Shown here: positions 24,011-34,849 of the stretch, piece by piece
Layout: each line of letters begins with the position of its first letter
Numbering within the stretch: position 1 is the first letter of the stretch
Origin: Chloroflexota bacterium
Lineage (GTDB): Bacteria > Chloroflexota > UBA5177
Assembly: GCA_051002135.1 (NCBI GenBank)
Contig: JBPCMQ010000060.1
Location: forward strand, 144,008-208,007
Direction of reading: 5' to 3'
DNA length: 64,000 nucleotides
Position numbers and translations under genes: made by a program
The notes under the pieces: model-generated
What the model was told of the DNA's origin: nothing
Database searches by the model: none
Seen by the model: only the letters and a program-made list of their open reading frames with translations

Positions 24011-24667
24011 TCAGTTCATCCCCGCCGGTCCACAGCTCCTGATTGGGCCCTTCATATCGAGTTGGAATCCCGCGACCAACGCTCTTTCCCGACCCTTGTC
24101 CCTACACCTACTCACAAAATTTTCCAAGAGCCTTGGCCCGTCCCTTGTGAGCACCGACTCGGGATGAAACTGCACGCCCTCGATGTCGAGCGAGCGGTGG
24201 CGGAGCCCCATGATGGTGCCGTCGCTCGTCTGCGCGGTGATCTCGAGACATTCGGGAATCGAGTCGCGTTCTACGGCGAGCGAGTGGTAGCGGACTGCCT
24301 CGAACGGAGAAGGGAGACCCTCGAAGAGGCCTTGAGACGAGTGGAACACCAATGAGATCTTGCCGTGCATCAGATCGGCGGCCGGTCCGACGCGAGCGCC
24401 AAACGCGGCCCCGACGCATTGATGGCCAAGGCACACGCCCAGAACCGGCGCCTCCCGAGGGGTGTCACGCAGCACGTCGTTCGATACGCCGGCGTGGCTT
24501 GGGTTGCCGGGACCGGGCGAGATGACGATACCGTCGGGTCGCATGTTCCGAATTTCGTCGAAACTCACCTGATCGTTCCGTACCACCCGCACCTCGGCTC
24601 CCAACATCGCCAGCGCTTGATAGAGGTTGTACGTGAAGCTGTCGTAGTTGTCGATCAGAAGCATCAT
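24011..24667 (-). CDS. trpG: Anthranilate synthase component II / glutamine amidotransferase (TrpG/PabA)
   Basis: MLLIDNYDSFTYNLYQ...GVCLGHQ is a class I GATase with a catalytic Cys. It overlaps the trpE stop with ATGA. Confidence 0.9.
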   Translation of the reverse strand: MMLLIDNYDSFTYNLYQALAMLGAEVRVVRNDQVSFDEIRNMRPDGIVISPGPGNPSHAGVSNDVLRDTPREAPVLGVCLGHQCVGAAFGARVGPAADLMHGKISLVFHSSQGLFEGLPSPFEAVRYHSLAVERDSIPECLEITAQTSDGTIMGLRHRSLDIEGVQFHPESVLTRDGPRLLENFVSRCRDKGRERALVAGFQLDMKGPIRSCGPAGMN

Positions 24668-26124
24668 CTCGTCCCTCCCGCGGCCTCGAGCAGCGCCATT
24701 GCCTTGTTCATCGTCTCTTCGAACTCTCGGTCCGGGACCGAATCTGCCACGATACCGGCTCCCGCCTGCACGTAGAGCCGGCCATCCTTAACGACCCCGG
24801 TCCGAATTGTGATCGCCATCTCCACATCCCCGTTCGTATTGATGAATCCAACCGCCCCGCCGTACGGTCCCCTACGCTCGTCTTCCAGATCGGCGATGAT
24901 CTGCATGGCCCGTATCTTTGGCGCCCCCGAAAGCGTGCCCGCCGGGAAGGCGGCACGAAGCGCGTCGAAGCTGGTGCACTCCGGACGAAGGACGCCGGCG
25001 ACGTCAGACACGAGATGCATGACGTGGGAGAAGTGCTCGACATACATAAACCGCGTCACCTCCACGCTGCCCGGCCGGCTGACCCGGCCCACGTCGTTGC
25101 GCCCAAGATCGACCAGCATCAGGTGCTCCGCTCGCTCTTTGTCGTCCGCCAGCAGCTCGGCCGCAAGCTCCTCATCTTCCCCGGGCGTCGACCCACGGCG
25201 ACGCGTGCCCGCGATCGGCCGAAGGAGAACAGTATCTCCGGTCACCTCGAGCAGAAGCTCGGGAGAAGCCCCGACGATCTGGTGGTCGACGAAGTCAATG
25301 TAGTACATGTATGGCGACGGGCTCACGGCGCGCAGCTGCCGGTACAGATCGAATGGGTCGCCGGGGTAGGGCCTCGACAGCCTCTGTGACAGAACGACTT
25401 GCAGGATATCCCCGCAGCGGATATGATCCTTGGCCTTCATCACCATGGCTTCAAAGTCTTGCTGCCGAACATTGCTGCCCAGGCTGGCGGGCGTACTCCT
25501 GATCGTGGCAGAGGCATCCACCGGCCCGTGCAAAGCCTCGACAAGTCGGTCGATCCGACGGATCGCATCCTCGTACGCCTGCGGGAGTGGCGTGTCCATC
25601 CAGACATGGCTCAGCACTCGGATCTTGTGCAAGACGTGGTCGAAGATGAGCACCGTGTCCACGTCCATGAAGGCCGCGTCCGGGAGCTCCAGCGAGTCGA
25701 GCCGCGCTGCCGGAAGGCGCTCGAAGTAGCCGGCGGCCTCATAAGACAGATAACCGAGCGCGCCGCCCTCGAAACGGGCTCGCGCCATCTGACGGCAGTC
25801 GTAGCTCTGCACCATCGATCGAACCGCCGCAAGCGGATCCAGGCACGCCCATGACTCGCCACCATCAAACTGCGCCGTGCCGTCCTTGACCCGCAGGACT
25901 TTCCGAGGATTGTTTCCGATGAAGGAGTAACGTCCAAGCCGCTCGCCGCCTTCGACACTTTCGAGTAGGAAGCTGGGTCCAGTCGATCTAATCTTGAGAT
26001 AAGCGGAGACGGGGGTGTCCAGGTCGGCGAGAATCTCGCGCGAAACGACGACACTGTTGCCCTGGGGAAAACCATTCGACAGCTCTCCTAGAGAGGGCGA
26101 ATAGAGTCTCGCTTCTGCCTTCAT
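24664..26124 (-). CDS. trpE: Anthranilate synthase component I
   Basis: LLESVEGGERLGRYSFIG and the chorismate-binding C-terminal domain are present. The start was taken at the internal ATG (MKAEARLY) immediately after the aroH stop. Confidence 0.9.
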   Translation of the reverse strand: MKAEARLYSPSLGELSNGFPQGNSVVVSREILADLDTPVSAYLKIRSTGPSFLLESVEGGERLGRYSFIGNNPRKVLRVKDGTAQFDGGESWACLDPLAAVRSMVQSYDCRQMARARFEGGALGYLSYEAAGYFERLPAARLDSLELPDAAFMDVDTVLIFDHVLHKIRVLSHVWMDTPLPQAYEDAIRRIDRLVEALHGPVDASATIRSTPASLGSNVRQQDFEAMVMKAKDHIRCGDILQVVLSQRLSRPYPGDPFDLYRQLRAVSPSPYMYYIDFVDHQIVGASPELLLEVTGDTVLLRPIAGTRRRGSTPGEDEELAAELLADDKERAEHLMLVDLGRNDVGRVSRPGSVEVTRFMYVEHFSHVMHLVSDVAGVLRPECTSFDALRAAFPAGTLSGAPKIRAMQIIADLEDERRGPYGGAVGFINTNGDVEMAITIRTGVVKDGRLYVQAGAGIVADSVPDREFEETMNKAMALLEAAGGTR

Positions 26125-26471
26125 ACGTCCTCTCCGAGATCGGGGCGCAGCGACATCGCTTCGCCTAGATATACGTGACGAACGGGGTCGCGGCGATTTA
26201 CGTGAATGAGCGTTCGCAAGCAGCGCGGAATCGCGTCCGGGACGGCTATTTCCTGCATGTCCAGCATCGGCACGTCCCACCCCATGTGGCGGGCGGCGCG
26301 TGCTGGAAACGCGGCATTCAGATCGGGTGTGAGCGTGAACAGAACACTGACAATCTCATGGTTGCCAAGTTTGTTTCGGCGGGCCAGCTCGCGAAGAAGC
26401 TCGCATGTGGCTCTCTCTATCGCCTCCTCGGTATTGTTTTCCACCGTTATAGCGCCGCGTATTGCTCTCAC
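26121..26471 (-). CDS. aroH: Monofunctional chorismate mutase, AroH class
   Basis: VRAIRGAITVENNTEEAI matches the AroH N-terminus. A GTG start at 26471 is preceded by GGAGGA. It overlaps the aroQ stop (GTGA). Confidence 0.8.
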   Translation of the reverse strand: MRAIRGAITVENNTEEAIERATCELLRELARRNKLGNHEIVSVLFTLTPDLNAAFPARAARHMGWDVPMLDMQEIAVPDAIPRCLRTLIHVNRRDPVRHVYLGEAMSLRPDLGEDV

Positions 26472-26908
26472 GAGTCCTCCAGGAGGTCGAGGAGTCCCCA
26501 CAGCGCGAGCATATAGCTGCGCCAGCCGAATCCGCTCACTAGAGCCCGGCAAGCGGGTGCGACCACAGAAATCGACCGGAAAGTCTCGCGCGCCGCGGGA
26601 AGGGAGAGATGTACTTCGATCACCGGGTAGGCCACGGCGGCGACGGCGTCGCGGAGCGCATAGCTGTAGTGCGCGAGTGCTCCGGCGTTGAGCAGCGCGC
26701 CAGACGCCCAGGTTCGCGCCTCGTGCAGCATGTCTATAAGCTGTCCCTCGTGGTTGGACTGGAGACACGTCACTTCGACGCCTCGTTCCCGCGCAAGTCC
26801 GGCGAGACGCGTGTCGATGTCGTTCAGCGTGGTGTATCCGTAGACATCCGGTTCCCGCTCACCGGTGAGGTTCAAATTCGGCCCGTGCAAGATGAGTATT
26901 CGCTTCAT
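26468..26908 (-). CDS. aroQ: 3-dehydroquinate dehydratase, type II
   Basis: MKRILILHGPNLNLTGEREP...VIEVHLS is the type II DHQase signature. Confidence 0.9.
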   Translation of the reverse strand: MKRILILHGPNLNLTGEREPDVYGYTTLNDIDTRLAGLARERGVEVTCLQSNHEGQLIDMLHEARTWASGALLNAGALAHYSYALRDAVAAVAYPVIEVHLSLPAARETFRSISVVAPACRALVSGFGWRSYMLALWGLLDLLEDS

Positions 26909-28485
26909 GCCGCGGCTCGCAGGGCAAAACGGACGGCGGATCGTGCGTCGATCTCGGTTATGTCCACGACCCGACCTTCACCAATACGCACCGGTAGTGC
27001 AAAGCGCAGAGAGCCGCCGCGACGCTTCTTGTCCTGAGACATGTGCGCCATGACAACGTCCTCATCAAGGGCGGAGACGTGCAGAGGCAGTCCAAAGCGG
27101 TCGAGAAGCACGGATATGCGCTCCAGTGGTCCGCGTTCACACACGCCCAACCGTTCGGCTAGCCACGTCTCCGCGACCACCCCGATACTCACGGCTTCCC
27201 CGTGGGCCAGGCCATAGCCGCTCGCGGCCTCCACCCCGTGCGCAATCGTATGCCCAAAGTTCAGCATGGCCCGCTCCCCATTCTCGAATGGATCCCGTTG
27301 CACGATCCGTACTTTCTGGTGGATTGCTTCGCGAATGACCTGTGTGCAGCGCAGAATGGAACCCGCCCCATCCAGGTCTTCAAGCTGACGAAAGAGCGTT
27401 TCCGAACAGACCACGCCGATCTTGACTATCTCCGCCAGTCCTTCCGCCAGTCGCCCTGGCGGTAGCGTGCGCAGCGTTTTGGGATCGACGAGTACGGCAT
27501 CCGCTGGATAGAAAGCGCCAACCACGTTCTTCACCCGGCCAAAGTCAATGCCGACCTTTCCGCCGATGGATGCGTCGACCTGTGCCAGCAGGGACGTGGG
27601 CACAAGCACGAGCGGCAGGCCCCGGAGATACGTGGCCGCGACCAGTCCCGCAAGATCACACACCACGCCACCGCCAACTGCCACAATGACCGACTCTCGC
27701 TCAAGACGCCATCGTTGGCAAGCCTGGTAGAGCTTTTCGAGCCAGACGGTCGACTTCGTTACCTCCCCAGCGGGAAGCACCACACTATGTACGTCCGGCA
27801 CGAACACACGCAGCGACTCGACAATAGAGCCCGATATTCCTGCCGCCTCCACGTTTGCGTCGCCGACCACCAGTGCCTGCGTCATGGACGGCATCACGTC
27901 TCGCGCATTCTCAAGATGGGTCGCGATCCCGGCTTCAAAAACGATGCAGGAAACACGCGTGCGTTCCACATCGAGCGTCGCCACCCGTCGTAACTCGGAG
28001 ACCGCGGTCACCTGCACGGCGACTTCTTCCGCCGTCCGAGCCGTCGTGTCGATCTGCCGGAAACGAGCGTAGCCGTCGCGCCGCTCCTCGAGCAGCCGGC
28101 CGACAGTGCCGGCCGAAAGATCATTCAGCAATGGCCGGCCCGACGGGGAGTCGAGTCTGCGCTCCAGCTCATTGGCATCGCAGGTCAAGCAGAGGACGAT
28201 ATCCTCGGAGCCGAGCAGAGCACGGTTCGCACCCGATAGCAGGGCGCCACCGCCGGCGGCAATCACTCGGTGACGACCCCCGAGCGCAGCCCTCACTGCC
28301 ACGGTCTCCATCTCCCGAAATGCGCACTCCCCGTCCTCAGCAAAAATTTGTGCGATGCTCTTGCCGGCTTGTCTCTCGATCTGATCATCCGTGTCAACGA
28401 ACTGCAGGCCATGACGTTCGGCCAGCAAGCAGCCCACGGTGCTCTTGCCGGTGCCCATGAAGCCCGTCAGGACGAGATTTCTCAT
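26905..28485 (-). CDS. Bifunctional shikimate kinase / 3-dehydroquinate synthase (AroK-AroB fusion)
   Basis: The N-terminus MRNLVLTGFMGTGKSTVG is the shikimate kinase P-loop. The C-terminal half has DHQ synthase motifs (GGGVVCDLAG..., VDASIGGKVGI). The start was taken at the ATG overlapping the aroC stop (ATGA). Confidence 0.9.
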   Translation of the reverse strand: MRNLVLTGFMGTGKSTVGCLLAERHGLQFVDTDDQIERQAGKSIAQIFAEDGECAFREMETVAVRAALGGRHRVIAAGGGALLSGANRALLGSEDIVLCLTCDANELERRLDSPSGRPLLNDLSAGTVGRLLEERRDGYARFRQIDTTARTAEEVAVQVTAVSELRRVATLDVERTRVSCIVFEAGIATHLENARDVMPSMTQALVVGDANVEAAGISGSIVESLRVFVPDVHSVVLPAGEVTKSTVWLEKLYQACQRWRLERESVIVAVGGGVVCDLAGLVAATYLRGLPLVLVPTSLLAQVDASIGGKVGIDFGRVKNVVGAFYPADAVLVDPKTLRTLPPGRLAEGLAEIVKIGVVCSETLFRQLEDLDGAGSILRCTQVIREAIHQKVRIVQRDPFENGERAMLNFGHTIAHGVEAASGYGLAHGEAVSIGVVAETWLAERLGVCERGPLERISVLLDRFGLPLHVSALDEDVVMAHMSQDKKRRGGSLRFALPVRIGEGRVVDITEIDARSAVRFALRAAA

Positions 28486-29597
28486 GCGCTCGACACCGTG
28501 CATCTCTCGGCGATTTCGGTGATGCTGTCACCGCCGTACTTGTCCAGGAACGCATCCGCCAGAACGAATGCGACCATGGCCTCGCCCACGACGCTGGCGG
28601 CGGGTACGGCGCAGATGTCGGACCGCTGGTACGTCGCCCACGCCTCGTCGCCGGTACGCACGTCCACGCTCCGCATCGGCGTCAGGGTGGTGCTGATCGG
28701 CTTCATCGCGGCCCGCACGATCAGTGGCTCACCGTTGGTAACGCCGCCTTCAAGCCCCCCCGCCCGGTTGGACGCCCGCTCGAGCTCACGCTCGCCGGCG
28801 ACGATCGCATCGTGCACTTGTGTACCTGGAAGGCGCGCATTACTGAAAGCGGCTCCAATTTCCACACCCTTGATCGCCTGGATACTCATGACCGCTCCCG
28901 CGATCCGTCCGTCAAGCTTGCGATCCCATTGCACATAGCTGCCAAGTCCAACGGGAAGGTTCAGAGCGCACACCTCGAAGACACCCCCCAACGTATCGCG
29001 CTCACGGCGCGCGCGATCGATGCGAGCCACCATGCGCTCTTCCGCCTCCGCGCTGGCCGCCCGAACGGACGACTGTTCGACTCTCTCACGGATCCGCTCG
29101 TCGGCCACATCGCATGACTCCGTCCATTCATCGCCGATTTCCAGCACCTGGCTCGCAATCACAACACCGAACCGAAAGAGCAGCTGCCTGGCCAGCCCGC
29201 CCGCCGCAACCCGCATGGCGGTCTCACGCGCGCTCGCGCGTTCCAGCACCGTCCGCATGTCGTCAAGTCGATATTTGATGGACCCCGCTAAGTCAGCATG
29301 ACCGGGCCGGGGTACGGAAAGCACAGGCTTCTCACGCTTCTCCTGATTTGCCCAATCGCGGTTCTCGATACGCATCGCAATTGGGGCTCCCGTCGTCCGA
29401 GACTCGTGGACCCCACCCAGGAATTGGACGGTGTCGTGCTCGATGCGTTGGCGCCCACTTCTCCCATGTCCGCCCTGCCGGCGCTGGAGATCAAAATTGA
29501 TGCCGTCCACGTCGATCTCGAGGCCGGCCGGCATGCCGTCGAGAATCCCGGACAGTGCTGGCCCATGCGACTCTCCCGCCGTCATGAAACGGAGCAT
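28482..29597 (-). CDS. aroC: Chorismate synthase
   Basis: MLRFMTAGESHGPALSGILDGMPAGL is the typical N-terminus. The internal ATG start was used. Confidence 0.9.
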   Translation of the reverse strand: MLRFMTAGESHGPALSGILDGMPAGLEIDVDGINFDLQRRQGGHGRSGRQRIEHDTVQFLGGVHESRTTGAPIAMRIENRDWANQEKREKPVLSVPRPGHADLAGSIKYRLDDMRTVLERASARETAMRVAAGGLARQLLFRFGVVIASQVLEIGDEWTESCDVADERIRERVEQSSVRAASAEAEERMVARIDRARRERDTLGGVFEVCALNLPVGLGSYVQWDRKLDGRIAGAVMSIQAIKGVEIGAAFSNARLPGTQVHDAIVAGERELERASNRAGGLEGGVTNGEPLIVRAAMKPISTTLTPMRSVDVRTGDEAWATYQRSDICAVPAASVVGEAMVAFVLADAFLDKYGGDSITEIAERCTVSSA

Positions 29598-30448
29598 GTC
29601 TCGACCTTTCGGAGCTCTCGGACGCACGCGTCTCGCATGATTTGCAGGTCCGGCTTTACGCTCGTCCAGAGTCGAAATGCGGCGGCGCCCTGCCCGACCA
29701 ACATCTCCAGCCCGTCCGAACACACACAACCCGCTCGGCGCGCGCGAGCCAGAAGCGGAGTTTCCCGTCCATAGACGAGATCAAGGACGGCGGTCTGAGG
29801 CTGCAGGTAGGCGTCCTGGGGAACGGGGCAGGCGTGTCCCAAAGGCTCCATTCCGAGAGGAGTCGCATTGACCAGCAGGGAGCAGTCCGGCCGAGCGAGC
29901 AAGGCAGTCAAATCTCGGCGCGGCAGGGCCCGGCACCTAGCGCCGCCCAGAAGGGCCACGGCGGCCGCTCTTGCGGGATCGCGTGACACCAGACAGATAT
30001 GGCGGAAACGAGGACGCAAGATCTCGAGTGCCGCTCGCGCCGCGCCACCGGATCCGAGGACGATAGCAAGGCCGGTGTTAGCCGGCAATTCAAGAGACGC
30101 GAGCGCCGCCATGAAGCCGTCGACATCGGTGTTGTGTCCGACCAAGCGTCCCCAGGACGACACCACGGTGTTGACCACGGATAGGCGACGAGCCGCGGGC
30201 GCCAGCTCGTCCATGAGGCCGGTCACCAGCTGCTTGTGTGGGATCGTCACGTTCAAGCCGCGATACACCCCCGATCGCACGTCGTCAAGCACGCCTTCCA
30301 CGTCGTCTGCCTCCACACGAACGCAGTCGTAGCGCGCGTCAATGCCCGTGGCCCGGAAGGCGGCGCCCTGCATGACCGGCGACAGACTATGGGCGATGGG
30401 ATTGCCGATGACTGCGTATCGATCAGTGGACATAGAGGACTCCTCCAC
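29582..30448 (-). CDS. aroE: Shikimate dehydrogenase
   Basis: YAVIGNPIAHSLSPVMQ and VTIPHKQ motifs are present. The ORF has a GTG start; an in-frame ATG lies 5 codons downstream. Confidence 0.85.
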   Translation of the reverse strand: MEESSMSTDRYAVIGNPIAHSLSPVMQGAAFRATGIDARYDCVRVEADDVEGVLDDVRSGVYRGLNVTIPHKQLVTGLMDELAPAARRLSVVNTVVSSWGRLVGHNTDVDGFMAALASLELPANTGLAIVLGSGGAARAALEILRPRFRHICLVSRDPARAAAVALLGGARCRALPRRDLTALLARPDCSLLVNATPLGMEPLGHACPVPQDAYLQPQTAVLDLVYGRETPLLARARRAGCVCSDGLEMLVGQGAAAFRLWTSVKPDLQIMRDACVRELRKVETCSVS

Positions 30449-31703
30449 ACTCGCGGAATACGTCTACAAACTGTGGGAATGATACGCTCGCCGCCTCCGC
30501 TCCCTCGATCGTGACCTTGCCCGTCGCCACACTGCCGGCGATCGCCAGCATCATCGCCAAACGGTGATCACCGTAGCTGGTCACGGTGCCACCGTGGAGA
30601 GGCGCGGGACCCGTGACGACAAACCCGTCGTCAACCTCCTGAATATTCGCTCCCAATGCTGTGAGAGAGTCACTCACCGCCCGTATACGGTCGCACTCTT
30701 TGAATCGGAGCTCTCGCGCGCCACGAATGAACGAGACGCCCCGCGCCTGGGTCGCAAGCAGAGCGAGAAGCGGGATTTCGTCCAGTAGTAGCGGGACCTC
30801 TGACGGTTGGACCGTCATGGCGGACAGTGAATCGCTCGCGACGGTGACATCCGCCACGGGCTCTCCCATGATTTCCCTTTCCTCGGCCACGTGAACGCCG
30901 GCGCCCATCTCTTCCAGAGCACGTAAGAAACCCGTACGCGTCGGATTCACTCCGCAGCTCATCGCCGTGAGGCTTCCGCCCGTCAGGACCGCCGCGGCAA
31001 AGAAAAAGGCGGCGGTAGACAGGTCTCCGGGCGCTGCAACGTCAAACGGACGCGGTCTCTGGCCGCCCTCCAGTCTGATGGAACCATCCTCCTCGACTAG
31101 CTCGATGCCCGTAGCCGCAAACATTCGCTCCGTGTGATCGCGCGTCCGAAAACACTCAACGACCGCGGTCGAGCCGCCGGCGTAAAGACCCGCGAGCAGT
31201 ATGCACGACTTGACCTGAGCACTTGCCACCGGCATGACGTAGCGGATAGGACGCAGAGAGCCTCCGCTGATTGTCAAAGGCGCTCTGCCGCCGGCGCTCC
31301 GGATTGAGGCTCCCATGAGCTCCAAAGGCTCGATGACTCTGCGCATCGGTCTCCGGCGCAGAGACGCGTCACCCGTGATCGAGGTTGTAAAAGGTTGTCC
31401 GGCAAGTATTCCTGCCAGCAGCCGCAGCGTGGTCCCGGAGTTACCGGCGTCGAGAGGCGAAGAGGACGCGAAATATCGGCCCGTGGAGTCGACGGCCGCC
31501 TGCGTGCCTTGAAGGACAATGGGCACCCCTAAATCCCGAAGGCACCGAGCCGTAGATTGCACGTCCTCTCCCTCCGGCAGGTTTTCAATCACAGTTTTCC
31601 CGACGGCAATTGACCCCAGCATCAGTGCCCTGTGCGCGATGGATTTGTCACCCGGCAGGGTGACGGTGCCGTCGATGGTCGACGGTTGCACGTGCCACTT
31701 CAC
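30423..31703 (-). CDS. aroA: 3-phosphoshikimate 1-carboxyvinyltransferase (EPSP synthase)
   Basis: TVTLPGDKSIAHRALMLGSIA matches the EPSPS N-terminal region. A GTG start at 31703 overlaps the tyrA stop (GTGA). Confidence 0.9.
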   Translation of the reverse strand: MKWHVQPSTIDGTVTLPGDKSIAHRALMLGSIAVGKTVIENLPEGEDVQSTARCLRDLGVPIVLQGTQAAVDSTGRYFASSSPLDAGNSGTTLRLLAGILAGQPFTTSITGDASLRRRPMRRVIEPLELMGASIRSAGGRAPLTISGGSLRPIRYVMPVASAQVKSCILLAGLYAGGSTAVVECFRTRDHTERMFAATGIELVEEDGSIRLEGGQRPRPFDVAAPGDLSTAAFFFAAAVLTGGSLTAMSCGVNPTRTGFLRALEEMGAGVHVAEEREIMGEPVADVTVASDSLSAMTVQPSEVPLLLDEIPLLALLATQARGVSFIRGARELRFKECDRIRAVSDSLTALGANIQEVDDGFVVTGPAPLHGGTVTSYGDHRLAMMLAIAGSVATGKVTIEGAEAASVSFPQFVDVFRECGGVLYVH

Positions 31704-32545
31704 GCCGGGCTCTCCATCCGCTCCGCCGCGGCGCGATCTTTGCCTTCCGTCAAGATACGGGCGATCTCCTCGCCGGCGCGCCGCTCGATGGCGTCCGCCA
31801 GACGATTGAGATGGGCCAGACATCGTCTCAAAGCCTCCGACACGCGATCATCGTTGGCGATGAGAATATCGCGCCACACCTCGGGGTCGCTCGAGGCAAG
31901 GCGAGTCATGTCATGCAGTCCGCTGCCACTCAATCGACCGTCGCCCGGCTCGAGGGTCAACCCTAATGCGGTTGAAAGGAGTTGAGGCAGATGGCTCGTG
32001 CGCGCCAGCACTTCGTCGTGCAGTTCCGCGTCGGTGACAAGCGGTCGGGCCCCGACCATCTCGGCAAGCTCTCGCGCCGCTGCCAACGCCGTACTGGAGG
32101 TCCGAGATGTGGGCACCAGTACAAAAGGCTTGTCTCGGAACAGATCTATGTCCGCGGACGCCGGTCCTCCGGTTTCGCGTCCGGCGATGGGGTGTCCTCC
32201 TACGGTTCGGCGGGCGCCGGGCAGCCCTTCCATGGACTCCAGCACGGGACGCTTGACGCTTCCGACATCGACGATGAGGCTGCCGGGTGCGGCCAACGTG
32301 TCGACAGCAGGAAGAGAGTGGATTATGGCGGCAATAGGCATGGCGAGCACCACGGCATCGACCGCCTCGACAGCGTCCTCCAGCGACGCGCGCGCCTCAT
32401 CGATCATGCCGCGAGCGGTGGCGATCTCCAGACGTTCCGGTGCGAGGTCAAAGGCCTGAACGCGCGCGCCGGAGCGGCGTGCCGCGCCGGCGATCGACGC
32501 ACCGATCAATCCGGTGCCGATGACGCCCAGGCGGCGAAGTGTCAC
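31700..32545 (-). CDS. tyrA: Prephenate/arogenate dehydrogenase
   Basis: LGVIGTGLIGASIAGAARR is the NAD-binding motif. A GTG start at 32545 overlaps the DAHP synthase stop (GTGA). Confidence 0.85.
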   Translation of the reverse strand: MTLRRLGVIGTGLIGASIAGAARRSGARVQAFDLAPERLEIATARGMIDEARASLEDAVEAVDAVVLAMPIAAIIHSLPAVDTLAAPGSLIVDVGSVKRPVLESMEGLPGARRTVGGHPIAGRETGGPASADIDLFRDKPFVLVPTSRTSSTALAAARELAEMVGARPLVTDAELHDEVLARTSHLPQLLSTALGLTLEPGDGRLSGSGLHDMTRLASSDPEVWRDILIANDDRVSEALRRCLAHLNRLADAIERRAGEEIARILTEGKDRAAAERMESPA

Positions 32546-33585
32546 AGAGTTCGTCCCACCGCCGGAGCCAGGATGCTCAGCTCGTCCATCAGCGTGCCGA
32601 AGCGATCCAGCCGGAGGGATTGAGGCCCGTCCGACAGGGCTTCGCTCGGGCGCGGGTGCACTTCGACCATGAGACCGTCCGCGCCGGCCGCAATTGCGGC
32701 CTTGGCAACGGGCGCTACGAACATCCACTTTCCGGTTGCGTGACTGGGGTCCACGATCACCGGCAGGTGCGTCAGGTGCTTGAGCACGGGAATCGCGCTG
32801 ATGTCGAGCGTGAATCGGGTCGAGTTTTCGAACGTCCTGATTCCGCGTTCACACAGAATCACGCGGTTGTTGTTGTTTGCGAGGATGTACTCCGCAGACA
32901 TCAGAAGCTCTTCGACCGTCGCGCTCATCCCACGCTTGAGAAGGACGGGATGGCCGGAACGCCCGATTTCCTGCAGAAGGCTGAAGTTCTGCATGTTTCT
33001 CGCGCCGACCTGAAGGATATCTACGTGCGAAGCCACCACATCGACGTCATCCGGGGTCAAAACCTCGGTGATGACGACCAGCCCTAGATCGCGACGCAAG
33101 CGATCCATCATCTCGAGGGCGGCACGGCCGAGCCCCTGAAAGCTGTACGGCGATGTGCGCGGCTTGAACGCGCCGGCACGCAGGGCCCGAGCGCCGGAGG
33201 CTTGAATCGCAACGGCCGTCTCCCGCAGCTGTTCCTCGCTCTCCACGGCGCAAGGACCGGCAATGACAGCGAGGCGACGGGCTCCGAAGGAGACGCCGTC
33301 CACCCCGACTATCGTGTCTCTGGGCTTGAAGTCGCGACTGCCAAGTTTGTATGGCTTCCCGATAGGGACCATGTGGTCGACGCCCGGCAAGAATTCGAGC
33401 CTCTCGAGCTGTTCCGGCGCGCTGTGTCCGATGATCCCGATGATGGTCGTTTCCTCACCCTCCGAGACGTGTGGCCGGTAGCCCATATCGCGGATACATG
33501 CGACGACGCCCTCGATCTGCTCTTGACGAGCGCTGTGTTGCATGACGACAATCATGTCCTTCTCCTCCTGAGCTACTGCCAACAT
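32542..33585 (-). CDS. 3-deoxy-7-phosphoheptulonate (DAHP) synthase, type I-beta, with an N-terminal ferredoxin-like regulatory domain
   Basis: The catalytic core [16 protein letters not shown]...[13 protein letters not shown] matches DAHPS/KDO8PS-like enzymes. An N-terminal ~70-aa extension precedes it. This is the first gene of the operon. Confidence 0.9.
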
Positions 33586-33611
33586 GTCTACCCTCTCGGC
33601 GGTAAAAGAAA

Positions 33612-33636
33612 GACCGGAGGCGAAACGCCTCCGGTC
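33612..33636 (-). terminator. Intrinsic terminator / attenuator hairpin in the leader of the aromatic operon
   Basis: Perfect 11-bp stem GACCGGAGGCG-AAA-CGCCTCCGGTC. On the transcribed (minus) strand it is followed by UUCUUUU, ~25 nt upstream of the DAHP synthase ATG. Confidence 0.55.
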
Positions 33637-33666
33637 TCTGGGGCACAGGGATGCGGGCGGTTCCAG

Positions 33667-33741
33667 TTACAGAACCGTCACCATGTGCCCCGTATTAAAC
33701 CAGTAGTAGTGGCCAACCACGGCCACATCGAACCCGATCAT
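33667..33741 (-). CDS. Putative attenuation leader peptide MIGFDVAVVGHYYWFNTGHMVTVL (24 aa), with consecutive Tyr-Tyr-Trp-Phe codons
   Basis: An ATG at 33741 is preceded by GAGGAA at 4-nt spacing. The aromatic codon run lies at 33697-33708. A TAA stop sits 30 nt upstream of the terminator hairpin. The leader segment GGGGCACA can pair with TGTGCCCC immediately 5' of the terminator. Confidence 0.5.
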   Translation of the reverse strand: MIGFDVAVVGHYYWFNTGHMVTVL

Positions 33742-33908
33742 GGATTCCTCACTGTCTGCTCTTGAGCCCACTATAGGAAAGTTCTCGGGGCATGTCAAAT
33801 TGACTGGCGGGCGCGCGGCCAGAGGACAGGCATGGAGTACCCCATGCACGGCACGAAGGTCGTCGGATGCATTGGTAGACCTGGTACAGAATTAGATATA
33901 CTACAGCC

Positions 33909-34523
33909 GTGAATTTCGCATTTGAGGTTGGCCGCCGGGAACGGAAGCGCCAGGCGGTACACGAAAACCTTCTCGAGGCGGGACGCGAGCTGTTCCGGAC
34001 CCAGGGAATCGGGCGCACAACGGTCGACGATATTGCGCACGCCGTTGACGTAGCCCGGCAAACATTTTTCAACCATTTTCCCTACAAGGAGGCTCTGGCC
34101 CTCGAACTCGGGGCAGGCAGAGTTCAAACGGTTGCCGACGGCGCTAGGGCTTTGCTTGAAGCCGGCACACCCGCCCTCGATGTCCTGCAGCAGATCGGCG
34201 CGTGGATGCTCGACATGGCGTGCGATCAGGGCGAGCTTGCCGTTGTCGTGGCCCGTGAATTGCTGCATCCGGAAGCGGATCGAGCAACCAGCGCGGAGCG
34301 GCAGATGCCGCTGCAAGGTTTGTTCGAAGCGATTTTGCAACAGGCCCGAGAAGAGGGAGCGGTTCGCGATGACTTGTCCCTGCAGGTGGTTGCTACCGGA
34401 CTCAGCGGCGTGGTGACGGGCATGTTTGCGCGTGTCTTGCGAGCAAAGCGGGAGGATCTGCAAACGGAACTGGCGATTTGCTTTGACATGGTGTTCAATG
34501 GAATTACAGATAGGAGAAGATAA
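33909..34523 (+). CDS. TetR/AcrR family transcriptional regulator
   Basis: The N-terminal HTH GIGRTTVDDIAHAVDVARQTFFNHFPYKEAL is the TetR signature. It has a GTG start and is divergent from the aro operon leader. Confidence 0.85.
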   Translation: MNFAFEVGRRERKRQAVHENLLEAGRELFRTQGIGRTTVDDIAHAVDVARQTFFNHFPYKEALALELGAGRVQTVADGARALLEAGTPALDVLQQIGAWMLDMACDQGELAVVVARELLHPEADRATSAERQMPLQGLFEAILQQAREEGAVRDDLSLQVVATGLSGVVTGMFARVLRAKREDLQTELAICFDMVFNGITDRRR

Positions 34524-34525
34524 CA

Positions 34526-34849
34526 ATGCTTTCTTGGACGAACGCACGACGTATGGGACATCGACTGCTCAGCGCCACGCTGCGCTGCCGGCAGTGCAGC
34601 CGCCCCGCCGGCGATTTGGTCGGCTTTGCCGACCGTGACCTGGGCGAGGCGCGCTTTTTACCGCTCGACACGGGCTTTATGCCTCACGACCTGAGTGGAG
34701 AGTTGCGCTGTGGTCGTTGCTCCGGACAGCTCTACCTCGATGATATTGAGCCCCTGGGCCGCAATGTCCCCCTCGAGGAAGCCGGCGGCATTCCCTTTGC
34801 ACGTGTGGCCGCGGGTGAATGCGAAATCGCGGACACGTCGGCAGCCTGA
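34526..34849 (+). CDS. Hypothetical zinc-ribbon protein (two CxxC pairs)
   Basis: CRQC...CGRC are the Cys pairs. It is 107 aa and lies immediately downstream of TetR. Confidence 0.45.
   Translation: MLSWTNARRMGHRLLSATLRCRQCSRPAGDLVGFADRDLGEARFLPLDTGFMPHDLSGELRCGRCSGQLYLDDIEPLGRNVPLEEAGGIPFARVAAGECEIADTSAA

What the first reader, a model, noticed from the sequence alone, without database searches (positions are those of the whole stretch)
33586..33908. Leader peptide with consecutive Tyr-Tyr-Trp-Phe codons plus a terminator hairpin upstream of a 10-gene aromatic amino acid super-operon (candidate ribosome-mediated attenuator)
Just upstream of the DAHP synthase start lies a 24-codon ORF, MIGFDVAVVGHYYWFNTGHMVTVL, with a reasonable Shine-Dalgarno (GAGGAA, 4-nt spacer). 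Its HYYWF run contains all three aromatic amino acids back to back. It ends 30 nt before a perfect 11-bp GC-rich hairpin followed by UUCUUUU on the transcribed strand. The leader segment GGGGCACA (codons T-G-H-M) is complementary to TGTGCCCC immediately 5' of the terminator, giving alternative pairings as in the trp/phe/his leaders. This would place the whole common pathway plus the tyrA and trpEG branches under one attenuator sensing Tyr, Trp and Phe simultaneously, an unusually integrated arrangement. A divergent TetR gene shares the intergenic region.
Basis: seen in the sequence. Interest (0 to 1): 0.75.

Follow-up and report, generated by a model that had tools for sequence, protein, structure and literature searches.

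The report
Aromatic leader-peptide attenuator of aro operon
A tiny upstream mini-gene with adjacent tyrosine, tryptophan and phenylalanine codons, followed by a transcription stop signal, most likely lets this Chloroflexota bacterium raise expression of its ten-gene aromatic amino acid pathway when those amino acids run short; this kind of switch is well known, but this family and its compact layout match no catalogued RNA family.

Summary
A 24-codon ORF (33741-33667, minus strand) with the run Tyr-Tyr-Trp-Phe lies behind a near-consensus promoter. It is followed by a strong terminator 18 nt before a 10-gene aro/tyrA/trpEG operon.

I recovered 12 further homologous leaders from related Chloroflexota. 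All keep a [Y/F/N]-Y-W-[F/W/Y] core while the rest of the peptide drifts. All fold the same way: aromatic codons, helix P1 (enclosing P2), then the terminator directly after. This structure has 17 of 27 pairs with compensatory changes, and 0 of 500 shuffles match it. No Rfam family matches.

It is therefore a genuine leader-peptide attenuator family. The kind is known (E. coli trpL/pheL, C. glutamicum aroR, Acholeplasma uORFC-13-1).

The layout is not classical. A pipeline that recovers the stall-specific antiterminator in E. coli trpL and in 12 of 13 other aromatic leaders finds none here. The best-supported switch is this: a ribosome waiting on the last aromatic codons covers the P1 5' strand. 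The freed P1 3' strand then captures the apical half of the terminator's 5' arm, raising the terminator folding barrier from about 3 to 7-9 kcal/mol.

Joint sensing of all three amino acids is not shown. The neighbouring TetR gene is not part of the unit.

The parts
33770..33798 (-). Sigma-70-like promoter: TTGACA (33798-33793), 17-nt spacer, TATAGT (33775-33770). The predicted start site is about 22 nt before the leader ATG.
   Evidence: 11 of 12 consensus matches, against 0.1 expected in shuffles; 10-11 of 12 with a 17-nt spacer in 9 of 11 homologous leaders, with the -10 element ending 26-31 nt before the leader start in most.
33745..33750 (-). Shine-Dalgarno-like GAGGAA of the leader ORF
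   Evidence: Purine-rich SD-like motifs lie upstream of the start codon in most relatives.
33667..33741 (-). Leader ORF, 24 codons plus TAA: MIGFDVAVVGHYYWFNTGHMVTVL
   Evidence: An in-frame start and an aromatic core are present in 13 homologous leaders.
33697..33708 (-). Regulatory codons UAC UAC UGG UUU (Tyr12 Tyr13 Trp14 Phe15)
   Evidence: The core [Y/F/N]-Y-W-[F/W/Y] is kept in 13 of 13 leaders. In these columns only the third positions of the Tyr codons vary. Phe is UUU 10:0 in leaders versus 30:54 UUU:UUC in the operon genes.
33684..33691 (-). P1 5' strand GGGGCACA. It starts 5 nt after the Phe codon.
   Evidence: Covariation. The distance from the last aromatic codon to P1 is 0-8 nt in 12 of 12 leaders measured.
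33667..33684 (-). Conserved block AUGGUGACGGUUCUGUAA, comprising the distal P1 5' strand, the P2 5' strand (CGGUUCU, 33677-33671) and the stop codon in the P2 loop
   Evidence: The nucleotides are conserved whichever reading frame is used; short-ORF relatives stop at the UGA inside GUGACGG. It is the best upstream complement of the terminator 5' arm in this leader (-13.4 kcal/mol), but that pairing is broken in L183.
33658..33664 (-). P2 3' strand GGAACCG
   Evidence: compensatory changes in P2.
33640..33647 (-). P1 3' strand UGUGCCCC, directly abutting the terminator. It is the candidate 'region 2', which can pair with GG(A)GGC of the terminator 5' arm.
   Evidence: P1. (2:3 pairing kept in 43 of 44 cells). 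(barrier).
33604..33639 (-). Intrinsic terminator: 5' arm AGAGACCGGAGGCG (33639-33626), loop UUU, 3' arm CGCCUCCGGUCUUU (33622-33609), tail UUUCUUUU (33611-33604)
   Evidence: dG is about -22 to -25 kcal/mol, depending on how much of the stem is counted. Present in 13 of 13 leaders, with compensatory changes at 5 of 11 pairs. The simple terminator scan did not list it.
32542..33585 (-). aroF-type DAHP synthase (class I-beta with an N-terminal ferredoxin-like domain). It probably starts at ATG 33585, with SD GAGAGGG at 33597-33591.
   Evidence: PF00793, PF18152; a start codon plus SD lies exactly 30 nt upstream of the MIVVMQ methionine in 11 of 12 loci.
24011..32545 (-). Nine further genes, abutting or overlapping: tyrA (~31700-32545), aroA (~30423-31703), aroE (~29582-30448), aroC (~28482-29597), aroK-aroB fusion (26905-28503), aroQ (26468-26908), aroH chorismate mutase (~26121-26474), trpE (~24664-26124), trpG (24011-24667)
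   Evidence: Pfam. (aroQ, read by eye as a type II dehydroquinase; no family scan was run on it); no internal RNA family, and promoter or terminator calls do not exceed chance.

Best explanation
This is a ribosome-mediated transcription attenuator for the aromatic amino acid super-operon.

Transcription starts at the TTGACA/TATAGT promoter, and a ribosome translates the 24-codon leader.

When charged aromatic tRNAs are plentiful, the ribosome runs through the four aromatic codons and the remaining 9 sense codons, terminates inside the P1/P2 domain and leaves. P1 (GGGGCACA:UGUGCCCC, enclosing P2) closes. The terminator 5' arm then has no competitor at its apex, the 11-14-bp hairpin folds, and RNA polymerase stops 18 nt before aroF.

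When the ribosome waits at the 3'-most aromatic codons (Phe15, probably also Trp14), its leading edge covers the P1 5' strand, which begins only 5 nt downstream. The freed C-rich P1 3' strand lies directly next to the terminator. It pairs with the apical GG(A)GGC of the terminator 5' arm, blocks nucleation of the terminator hairpin for long enough, and polymerase reads into aroF-tyrA-aroA-aroE-aroC-aroKB-aroQ-aroH-trpE-trpG.

Shown: the conserved ORF and aromatic core, promoter, P1/P2/terminator structure, spacing, and operon content.

Inferred: translation of the leader, the 2:3 pairing as the antiterminator, the need for ribosome release to reset the switch, and which amino acids are sensed.

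I put about 0.8 on 'leader-peptide attenuator responding to aromatic aminoacyl-tRNA supply' and about 0.45 on this particular switching step.
For: - 13 homologous leaders keep the aromatic core while the rest of the peptide and its length vary.
- In the aromatic codon columns, variation is confined to Tyr third positions. Codon choice is shifted to the less-used UUU and UAU.
- The promoter is conserved.
- P1/P2/T: 98% of cells paired, 17 of 27 pairs with compensatory changes, 0 of 500 shuffles as good, slid controls 35-49%.
- The P1 5' strand begins 0-8 nt after the last aromatic codon, and P1 ends 0-4 nt before the terminator, in 12 of 12 leaders measured.
- The consensus fold of RNA exposed during a stall pairs GCCC of the P1 3' strand with GG.GGC of the terminator arm. 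This pairing is kept in 43 of 44 cells, and its only changes are wobble-compatible.
- The direct-path barrier to terminator folding rises from 3.1-3.7 to 8.6 kcal/mol in the window's leader once P1 is masked. The rise is similar in L001, L083, L163 and L173. E. coli trpL goes from 3.6 to 6.8 by the same measure.
- The same gene position carries aromatic-run leaders plus terminators in 24 of 150 distinct DAHPS loci, against 3 in reverse-complement controls.
- Precedents exist: aroR and uORFC-13-1.
Against: - No stall-specific antiterminator of classical strength. The terminator 5' arm gains only -0.3 to -6.9 kcal/mol when a ribosome is on the aromatic codons, and as much (-2.3 to -6.5) when it is at the stop codon, against a terminator of -18 to -25.6. 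Controls give -9 to -21 stalled and 0 to -4 at stop.
- The barrier does not fall at the stop codon, so resetting must depend on ribosome release.
- The 2:3 pairing has no double-sided covariation. In L169, L174, L177 and L180 the barrier difference is small.
- Stalls at Tyr12 and Tyr13 leave P1 intact in the model, although Tyr codons are conserved and tyrA is in the operon.
- The strongest alternative partner of the terminator arm is the aromatic codon run itself, and only in ribosome-free RNA.
- There are no expression data of any kind.
Confidence: 0.65

Rival explanations
1. Inverted logic. The intact P1/P2 domain is itself the antiterminator. It abuts the terminator and, in ribosome-free RNA, is extended by pairing of the Trp-codon run (YUGGUUU) with the start of the terminator arm (AGACCGG). 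A ribosome must translate through P1 for termination to occur, and the stop codon always lies inside P1/P2. A ribosome held on the aromatic codons just 5' of P1 fails to open it, so polymerase reads through.
For: - The Trp-codon: terminator-arm pairing (P0) is in the MFE of the ribosome-free nascent RNA in all 12 leaders analysed and in the consensus fold. Its 4-5-bp core is kept in 13 of 13 leaders, including L181 and L183, where the terminator arm changed G to A.
- The terminator arm is most sequestered in free RNA (mean -6.0 kcal/mol).
- 6 of 11 terminator stem pairs are invariant while P1 covaries freely, which suggests an extra constraint on the terminator sequence.
- Phe is always UUU.
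- It would explain why stalls at the Tyr and Trp codons, which leave P1 intact, matter.
Against: - The P0 5' strand lies under any ribosome stalled on the aromatic codons, so it cannot act in the starved state. The model then needs an unproven steric or polymerase-directed effect of P1.
- In RNA-only modelling an intact P1 gives the lowest barrier to terminator folding (about 3 kcal/mol).
- P0 has no double-sided covariation, and its 5' strand is fixed by coding anyway.
- It predicts read-through whenever the leader is empty, which would blunt repression.
Confidence: 0.12
2. The mini-ORF is not the sensor. P1/P2 and the invariant GACCGGAGG arm are bound by a protein, a small ligand or a tRNA, which decides between terminator and read-through.
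For: - Strong nucleotide conservation of GUGACGGUY and GACCGGAGG, beyond what base pairing requires.
- No classical antiterminator.
Against: - No Rfam family, T-box or riboswitch match.
- It does not explain an in-frame start codon and a conserved aromatic run whose only variation is synonymous.
- P1 varies freely by compensation, unlike a ligand pocket.
- No conserved regulator gene lies nearby.
Confidence: 0.08
3. The YYWF nascent peptide is a TnaC-like arrest peptide that senses free aromatic amino acids. An excess would hold the ribosome on the leader and favour termination.
For: - An invariant Trp flanked by aromatics.
- In the model, a ribosome on the first aromatic codons leaves the terminator arm free (-0.3 to -3.5 kcal/mol).
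Against: - The distance from Trp to the stop codon varies from 3 to 10 codons, and no other residue is conserved.
- Hungry-codon stalling at the same site would then repress a biosynthetic operon under starvation.
- Nothing tested here speaks for arrest.
Confidence: 0.04

Closest known systems
E. coli trpL / pheL type leader-peptide attenuators (Rfam Trp_leader, Phe_leader)
   Same: A short translated leader with codons for the pathway's end products, an intrinsic terminator before the first structural gene, and a helix just 3' of the regulatory codons that a stalled ribosome opens.
   Different: - No sequence or structure match.
- No long 2:3 antiterminator, and no protection of region 2 by a ribosome at the stop codon. 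trpL gives 0 / -9.3 / 0 kcal/mol for free / stalled / stop, whereas this leader gives -5.5 / -0.3 to -4.1 / -5.2.
- It carries three different amino acids' codons instead of one.
Corynebacterium glutamicum aroR leader upstream of aroF (Neshat et al. 2014, as summarised in PMC11802643)
   Same: A leader peptide with mixed aromatic residues (Phe-Tyr-Phe) in front of the DAHP synthase operon, with read-through enhanced by ribosome stalling. There Tyr supply had no effect, which parallels the model result here that the Tyr codons are poorly placed.
   Different: A different phylum and a different DAHPS type. It has no Trp codon. The regulated unit there is not a 10-gene pathway operon. I did not hold the aroR sequence, so homology was not tested.
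uORFC-13-1 motif upstream of aroF in Acholeplasma (PMC8632094)
   Same: A predicted uORF with promoter, RBS and Phe codons, immediately upstream of an intrinsic terminator and found exclusively before aroF.
   Different: It has U-run Phe codons only, comes from AT-rich Mollicutes, and is an unrelated sequence. It is not among the Rfam matches.
Aromatic-run leaders upstream of the same DAHPS type in Acidobacteriota, Methylomirabilis and other metagenomic lineages (found here: L139, L158, L135, L058, L069, L020, L106/L143, L118/L145, L144)
   Same: The same gene position, mixed Tyr/Trp/Phe runs, and a terminator.
   Different: They are unrelated in sequence. They are clearly classical, with region 1 nearly duplicating region 3 and a stalled-state antiterminator of -9 to -21 kcal/mol that vanishes at the stop codon.

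Membership tests
Ribosome-mediated (leader-peptide) transcription attenuator | A short ORF with a start codon and ribosome-binding site between the promoter and the first structural gene | tested here: met
   ORF 33741-33667 with GAGGAA upstream and the promoter at 33798-33770. An equivalent ORF is present in 13 of 13 homologous leaders.
Ribosome-mediated (leader-peptide) transcription attenuator | A cluster of codons for the amino acid(s) made by the regulated pathway, conserved among relatives | tested here: met
   YYWF here. The core [Y/F/N]-Y-W-[F/W/Y] is present in 13 of 13 leaders while the flanks diverge. The background aromatic codon frequency is 4.8%.
Ribosome-mediated (leader-peptide) transcription attenuator | An intrinsic terminator between the leader ORF and the structural genes | tested here: met
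   An 11-14-bp GC-rich hairpin plus UUUCUUUU, with dG about -22 to -25 kcal/mol, conserved with compensatory changes. Termination itself was not measured.
Ribosome-mediated (leader-peptide) transcription attenuator | An antiterminator that excludes the terminator, is favoured when a ribosome stalls on the regulatory codons, and is prevented when it reaches the stop codon | tested here: inconclusive
   There is no classical signature in the equilibrium energies, although the positive controls show it. A short 2:3 pairing raises the folding barrier from about 3 to 7-9 kcal/mol when P1 is masked, but does so equally at the stop codon.
Ribosome-mediated (leader-peptide) transcription attenuator | Read-through responds to the supply of the cognate aminoacyl-tRNA | not testable with these tools
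   This needs reporter assays, Term-seq or in vitro coupled assays.
Rfam Trp_leader / Phe_leader / His_leader and other curated leaders | A match to the family covariance model | tested here: not met
   No such family matched, even at E <= 10 in the leader region or at E <= 1 across the operon. Nothing reached the gathering score in 20 related loci.
T-box riboswitch (the usual control of aromatic operons in Firmicutes; also reported in Actinobacteria, PMC9413887) | A T-box covariance model match (specifier loop, T-box sequence) | tested here: not met
   No T-box hit. The element is only about 110 nt long and is built around an ORF.
C. glutamicum aroR | Sequence homology of the leader RNA or peptide | not tested
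Only the functional description was read.

The most novel reading that the evidence does not exclude
The family is a non-classical attenuator. The regulatory codons themselves form one strand of the structure that holds the terminator's 5' arm (Trp-codon run : ACCRG), stacked on a protector helix that abuts the terminator. Ribosome position would then be read out without any conventional 2:3 antiterminator. This could work through inverted logic, in which translation through P1 is required for termination, or through the stalled ribosome's own RNA contacts with the invariant GGAGG in the terminator arm.
Probability: 0.15. Interest if true: 0.7.

Novelty: new variant of a known kind. Interest (0 to 1): 0.5.

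Why it matters
- It extends leader-peptide attenuation to Chloroflexota. The papers I read describe the mechanism mainly for Proteobacteria, Actinobacteria and a few Firmicutes, and I found none describing it in Chloroflexota.
- It shows a single cis element placed to control all seven common-pathway steps plus the Tyr and Trp branch points.
- The survey shows that mixed aromatic leaders in front of class I-beta DAHP synthase genes recur in several phyla and are absent from Rfam, so they are systematically unannotated.
- The focal family is a natural test case for how small an antiterminator can be. It keeps every hallmark of attenuation except the classical mutually exclusive helix, which makes the kinetic view of attenuation directly testable with a handful of mutants.

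Tried and rejected
- **Rfam scans** of the leader, the operon and 20 related loci found nothing.
- **P2 5' strand / conserved block (GUGACGGUY) as the antiterminator strand.** This was attractive because it lies exactly between 'last aromatic codon + 13' and 'stop + 13', and because it is the best complement of the terminator arm in W, L163 and L169. It comes within 0.4-5 kcal/mol of the MFE in only 7 of 12 leaders, shows no covariation, and is broken at 2 of 5 core pairs in L183. Rejected as the general mechanism.
- **Shifted-register model** (P2 3' strand pairing with the P1 3' strand). It is not possible in the window's own sequence.
- **Equilibrium probability that the apical terminator arm is unpaired.** Uninformative, about 0 in every state.
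- **TetR as the operon's regulator.** Rejected because the upstream neighbour varies (TetR, TetR plus a CMD gene, PAS-GGDEF, others) while aroF-tyrA-aroA is constant.
- **An apparent 430-nt gap between aroKB and aroH** that might have held a second attenuator. It is the aroQ gene.
- **The covariance model** found no further members among about 150 other DAHPS loci.
- **The simple terminator scan** did not list the hairpin, although RNAfold and the covariation analysis support it.

Full report
**What is there.** On the minus strand the region holds the following features.
- A near-consensus promoter, TTGACA-17-TATAGT, at 33798-33770. It has 11 of 12 matches, against 0.1 expected in shuffles.
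- An SD-like GAGGAA.
- A 24-codon ORF, 33741-33667, encoding MIGFDVAVVGHYYWFNTGHMVTVL. Its aromatic codons UAC UAC UGG UUU lie at 33708-33697.
- A helix I call P1 (GGGGCACA 33691-33684 with UGUGCCCC 33647-33640). It encloses a small hairpin, P2 (33677-33671 with 33664-33658).
- Directly after P1, an 11-14-bp GC-rich hairpin (33639-33609) with the tail UUUCUUUU.

The 206-nt leader folds at -84.1 kcal/mol, with z = -3.8.

The DAHP synthase start is most likely ATG 33585, 18 nt after the tail. A start codon plus SD sits at this exact position in 11 of 12 related loci.

**The operon.** Pfam confirms nine of the genes:
- aroF-type DAHPS with a ferredoxin-like domain
- tyrA, aroA, aroE and aroC
- an aroK-aroB fusion
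- AroH-type chorismate mutase
- trpE and trpG

The stretch I first took for a gap is a type II dehydroquinase gene, read by eye. That gives ten abutting or overlapping genes. I found no internal RNA family, and no promoter or terminator calls above chance. The operon lacks pheA and trpD-A.

**Source and relatives.** The window matches a Chloroflexota MAG, GCA_036816325.1. Relatives came from three routes:
- a genome scan
- a metagenome scan with a clade-specific DAHPS segment
- a protein search, which returned about 100 Chloroflexota-labelled homologues at 65-82% identity, followed by contig look-ups

Together these gave 12 further distinct leaders. Their peptides are listed here:

| Leader | Peptide |
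|---|---|
| W (window) | ...GHYYWFNTGHMVTVL |
| L163 | ...YGYWYWFKSGHTVTVS |
| L166 | ...YGYWYWFNSGHTGTVL |
| L083 | ...ARYYWFQEGHDVTVL |
| L085 | ...GRYYWFYKGVA |
| L169 | ...GYYYWFYRGMT |
| L173 | ...GFYYWFYRGIM |
| L174 | ...DRYYWFYRGIT |
| L177 | ...GRNYWFKRKSTM |
| L180 | ...GRYYWWIHRV |
| L001 | ...GNYYWYMTGV |
| L181 | ...EYGWYWWGVGRA |
| L183 | MTAWRDIWYWRRKGMT |

- Only the aromatic core is conserved. Tyr and Trp are present in all 13 leaders and Phe in 9.
- In the alignment, the only variable columns inside the run are the third positions of the Tyr codons.
- Phe is always UUU (10:0), although the operon's genes prefer UUC (54:30).
- The promoter is conserved, with 10-11 of 12 matches in 9 of 11 leaders.
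- The upstream neighbour is not conserved, so the TetR gene is unrelated to this unit.

**RNA structure.** All leaders fold as aromatic codons, then P1 enclosing P2, then the terminator.
- On the 11-sequence alignment, RNAalifold recovers P1, P2 and T. 96.9% of cells pair, 12 pairs change on both sides, and 0 of 500 shuffles match.
- A covariance model built from it finds L181 and L183, which were not used to build it, at E = 1.3e-5 and 2.5e-19. It finds nothing in about 150 other DAHPS loci.
- On the 13-sequence alignment, 98% of cells pair and 17 of 27 pairs have compensatory changes. Slid controls reach 35-49%.
- P1 starts 0-8 nt after the last aromatic codon and ends 0-4 nt before the terminator.
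- A 1-nt indel splits the family into long ORFs (stop UAA in the P2 loop) and short ORFs (stop UGA inside GUGACGG). The nucleotides stay conserved in both, so that block is constrained as RNA and the exact stop position is not critical.

**How the switch might work.** P1 does not overlap the terminator, so I looked for a true antiterminator by masking the RNA under a ribosome (A-site first base + 12). The candidates were:

1. *The conserved block / P2 5' strand pairing with the terminator arm.* It is the best complement in W (-13.4 kcal/mol), L163 and L169, but it is not general and is broken in L183.
2. *P0, the Trp-codon run YUGGUUU pairing with AGACCGG.* It is present in the ribosome-free fold of every leader and in the consensus. 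However, it lies under any ribosome stalled on those codons.
3. *A short 2:3 pairing of the freed P1 3' strand (GCCC) with the apical GG(A)GGC of the terminator arm.* It is the consensus fold of the stalled state. It is kept in 43 of 44 cells, with wobble-compatible changes only. Its dG is -2.3 to -6.7 kcal/mol.

**Controls.** I measured the energy the terminator arm gains from upstream partners before its 3' arm exists. Values are kcal/mol.

| Leader(s) | Free RNA | Ribosome on aromatic/regulatory codons | Ribosome at stop |
|---|---|---|---|
| E. coli trpL | 0 | -9.3 | 0 |
| 12 of 13 independent aromatic leaders from other lineages | -0.2 to -12.8 | -9 to -21 | 0 to -4 |
| Focal family (10 tested) | -2.6 to -11.3 | -0.3 to -6.9 | -2.3 to -6.5 |

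- The focal family's terminators are -18 to -25.6 kcal/mol.
- The absence of the classical signature in the focal family is therefore real and is not a limit of the method.

A kinetic estimate, the direct-path barrier from the nascent fold to the terminator fold, gives a different picture.
- trpL goes from 3.6 (free or at stop) to 6.8 kcal/mol (stalled).
- The window's leader stays at 3.1-3.7 kcal/mol while P1 is intact: free RNA, or a ribosome at Tyr12, Tyr13 or Trp14.
- It rises to 8.6 kcal/mol once P1 is masked. That happens at Phe15, and also at Trp14 with a 15-nt leading edge.
- It stays at 8.4 kcal/mol at the stop codon.
- L001, L083, L163 and L173 behave the same way. L169, L174, L177 and L180 show only small differences.

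**Reading.** The element has every hallmark of a leader-peptide attenuator, and I hold that with about 0.8 confidence.

The most likely switch (about 0.45) is a compressed version of the classical one:
- P1 is the protector helix.
- A ribosome waiting on the 3'-most aromatic codons opens it.
- The freed 3' strand sits next to the terminator and caps the apex of the terminator arm, which delays hairpin nucleation.
- The switch resets when the ribosome finishes and leaves, not by masking at the stop codon.

Open problems:
- The 2:3 helix is weak.
- It has no double-sided covariation.
- In the model the Tyr codons are poorly placed to act.
- The best partner of the terminator arm is the codon run itself, in empty RNA.

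These problems keep an inverted or otherwise non-classical logic alive (about 0.15).

**Comparison and novelty.** The kind is known:
- trpL and pheL.
- C. glutamicum aroR, a Phe-Tyr-Phe leader before aroF in which Tyr had no effect.
- The Acholeplasma uORFC-13-1 uORF plus terminator before aroF.

A 2010 survey stated that leader peptides had been shown only in Proteobacteria and Actinobacteria, and it added some Firmicutes. I found no description for Chloroflexota, and nothing matches in Rfam.

In my sample, 24 of 150 distinct class I-beta DAHPS loci carry an aromatic-run mini-ORF plus terminator, against 3 in reverse-complement controls. Fourteen of the 24 lie outside the focal clade, in several unrelated and clearly classical families.

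The focal family is thus a new family of a known kind with an unusual, compressed architecture.

**Limits.**
- All evidence is computational.
- Ribosome footprints, nearest-neighbour energies and findpath barriers are approximations.
- Thirteen sequences from one clade give little power on near-invariant columns.

Noticed in passing
L139, L158, L135, L150, L152, L089, L058, L069, L078 (about 20-260 nt upstream of the DAHPS gene): An Acidobacteriota-type family of aromatic leaders (...AYSYWWRF..., ...SFRFWRF...) with a conserved terminator, GGCCCACUC. The Ala-Tyr-Ser codon stretch GGCCUACUC nearly duplicates the terminator 5' arm, and both compete for GAGUGGGCC. This is a textbook 1:2/2:3/3:4 attenuator with no Rfam match.
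   Followed up: partly
L020 3250-3400; L106/L143; L118/L145; L144/L110; L156: Further unrelated aromatic-run leaders plus terminators lie before the same DAHPS type: Methylomirabilis RYYFWFSF, YAYYYYWY, YYTIFYYFRYY, KYFSYYWYFF. In all, 24 of 150 loci are positive, against 3 in the reverse-complement control.
   Followed up: partly
window 33697-33704 with 33631-33637: The Trp-Phe codon run CUGGUUU is complementary to AGACCGG at the base of the terminator 5' arm (P0). It pairs in the ribosome-free nascent fold of every family member, and its core survives the G-to-A change in L181 and L183. Its function, if any, is unexplained.
   Followed up: yes
window 33667-33684 and the equivalent positions in L085, L169, L173, L174, L177, L180, L001: A 1-nt indel gives two leader ORF lengths (stop UAA in the P2 loop, or UGA inside GUGACGG), while the nucleotide block GUGACGGUYCUGUAA stays conserved. 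Several P2 loops still carry an out-of-frame stop triplet.
   Followed up: partly
window 33555-33585: DAHPS has two in-frame start candidates 30 nt apart, giving [16 protein letters not shown]... Both have SD-like sequences. The upstream one is conserved in position in 11 of 12 loci, yet databases hold both the 337-aa and the 347-aa versions.
   Followed up: partly
window 33909-34849 (+): The TetR gene is followed by a 107-aa ORF with no Pfam hit. The pair travels together in relatives (L081, L166, L167, L177, L180) next to different neighbours, in two loci divergent from a carboxymuconolactone-decarboxylase-family gene.
   Followed up: no
window 33626-33631 and 33616-33620: The terminator's 5' arm contains a perfect SD-like GGAGG (AGAGG in L181 and L183), invariant across the family, and its 3' arm contains the anti-SD-like CCUCC. 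Whether ribosomes or 30S subunits touch this site is unknown.
   Followed up: no
window 24011-33585: The operon holds all seven common-pathway steps plus tyrA, chorismate mutase and trpEG, but neither pheA nor trpD-A. In parallel, Tyr and Trp codons are invariant in the leader, whereas Phe is missing from 4 of 13 leaders.
   Followed up: no
window 33709-33726: A GC-rich hairpin (GUGGCCG UGGU UGGCCAC) lies inside the leader ORF just 5' of the aromatic codons. Most relatives have a GC-rich hairpin at the same place with a different sequence.
   Followed up: no
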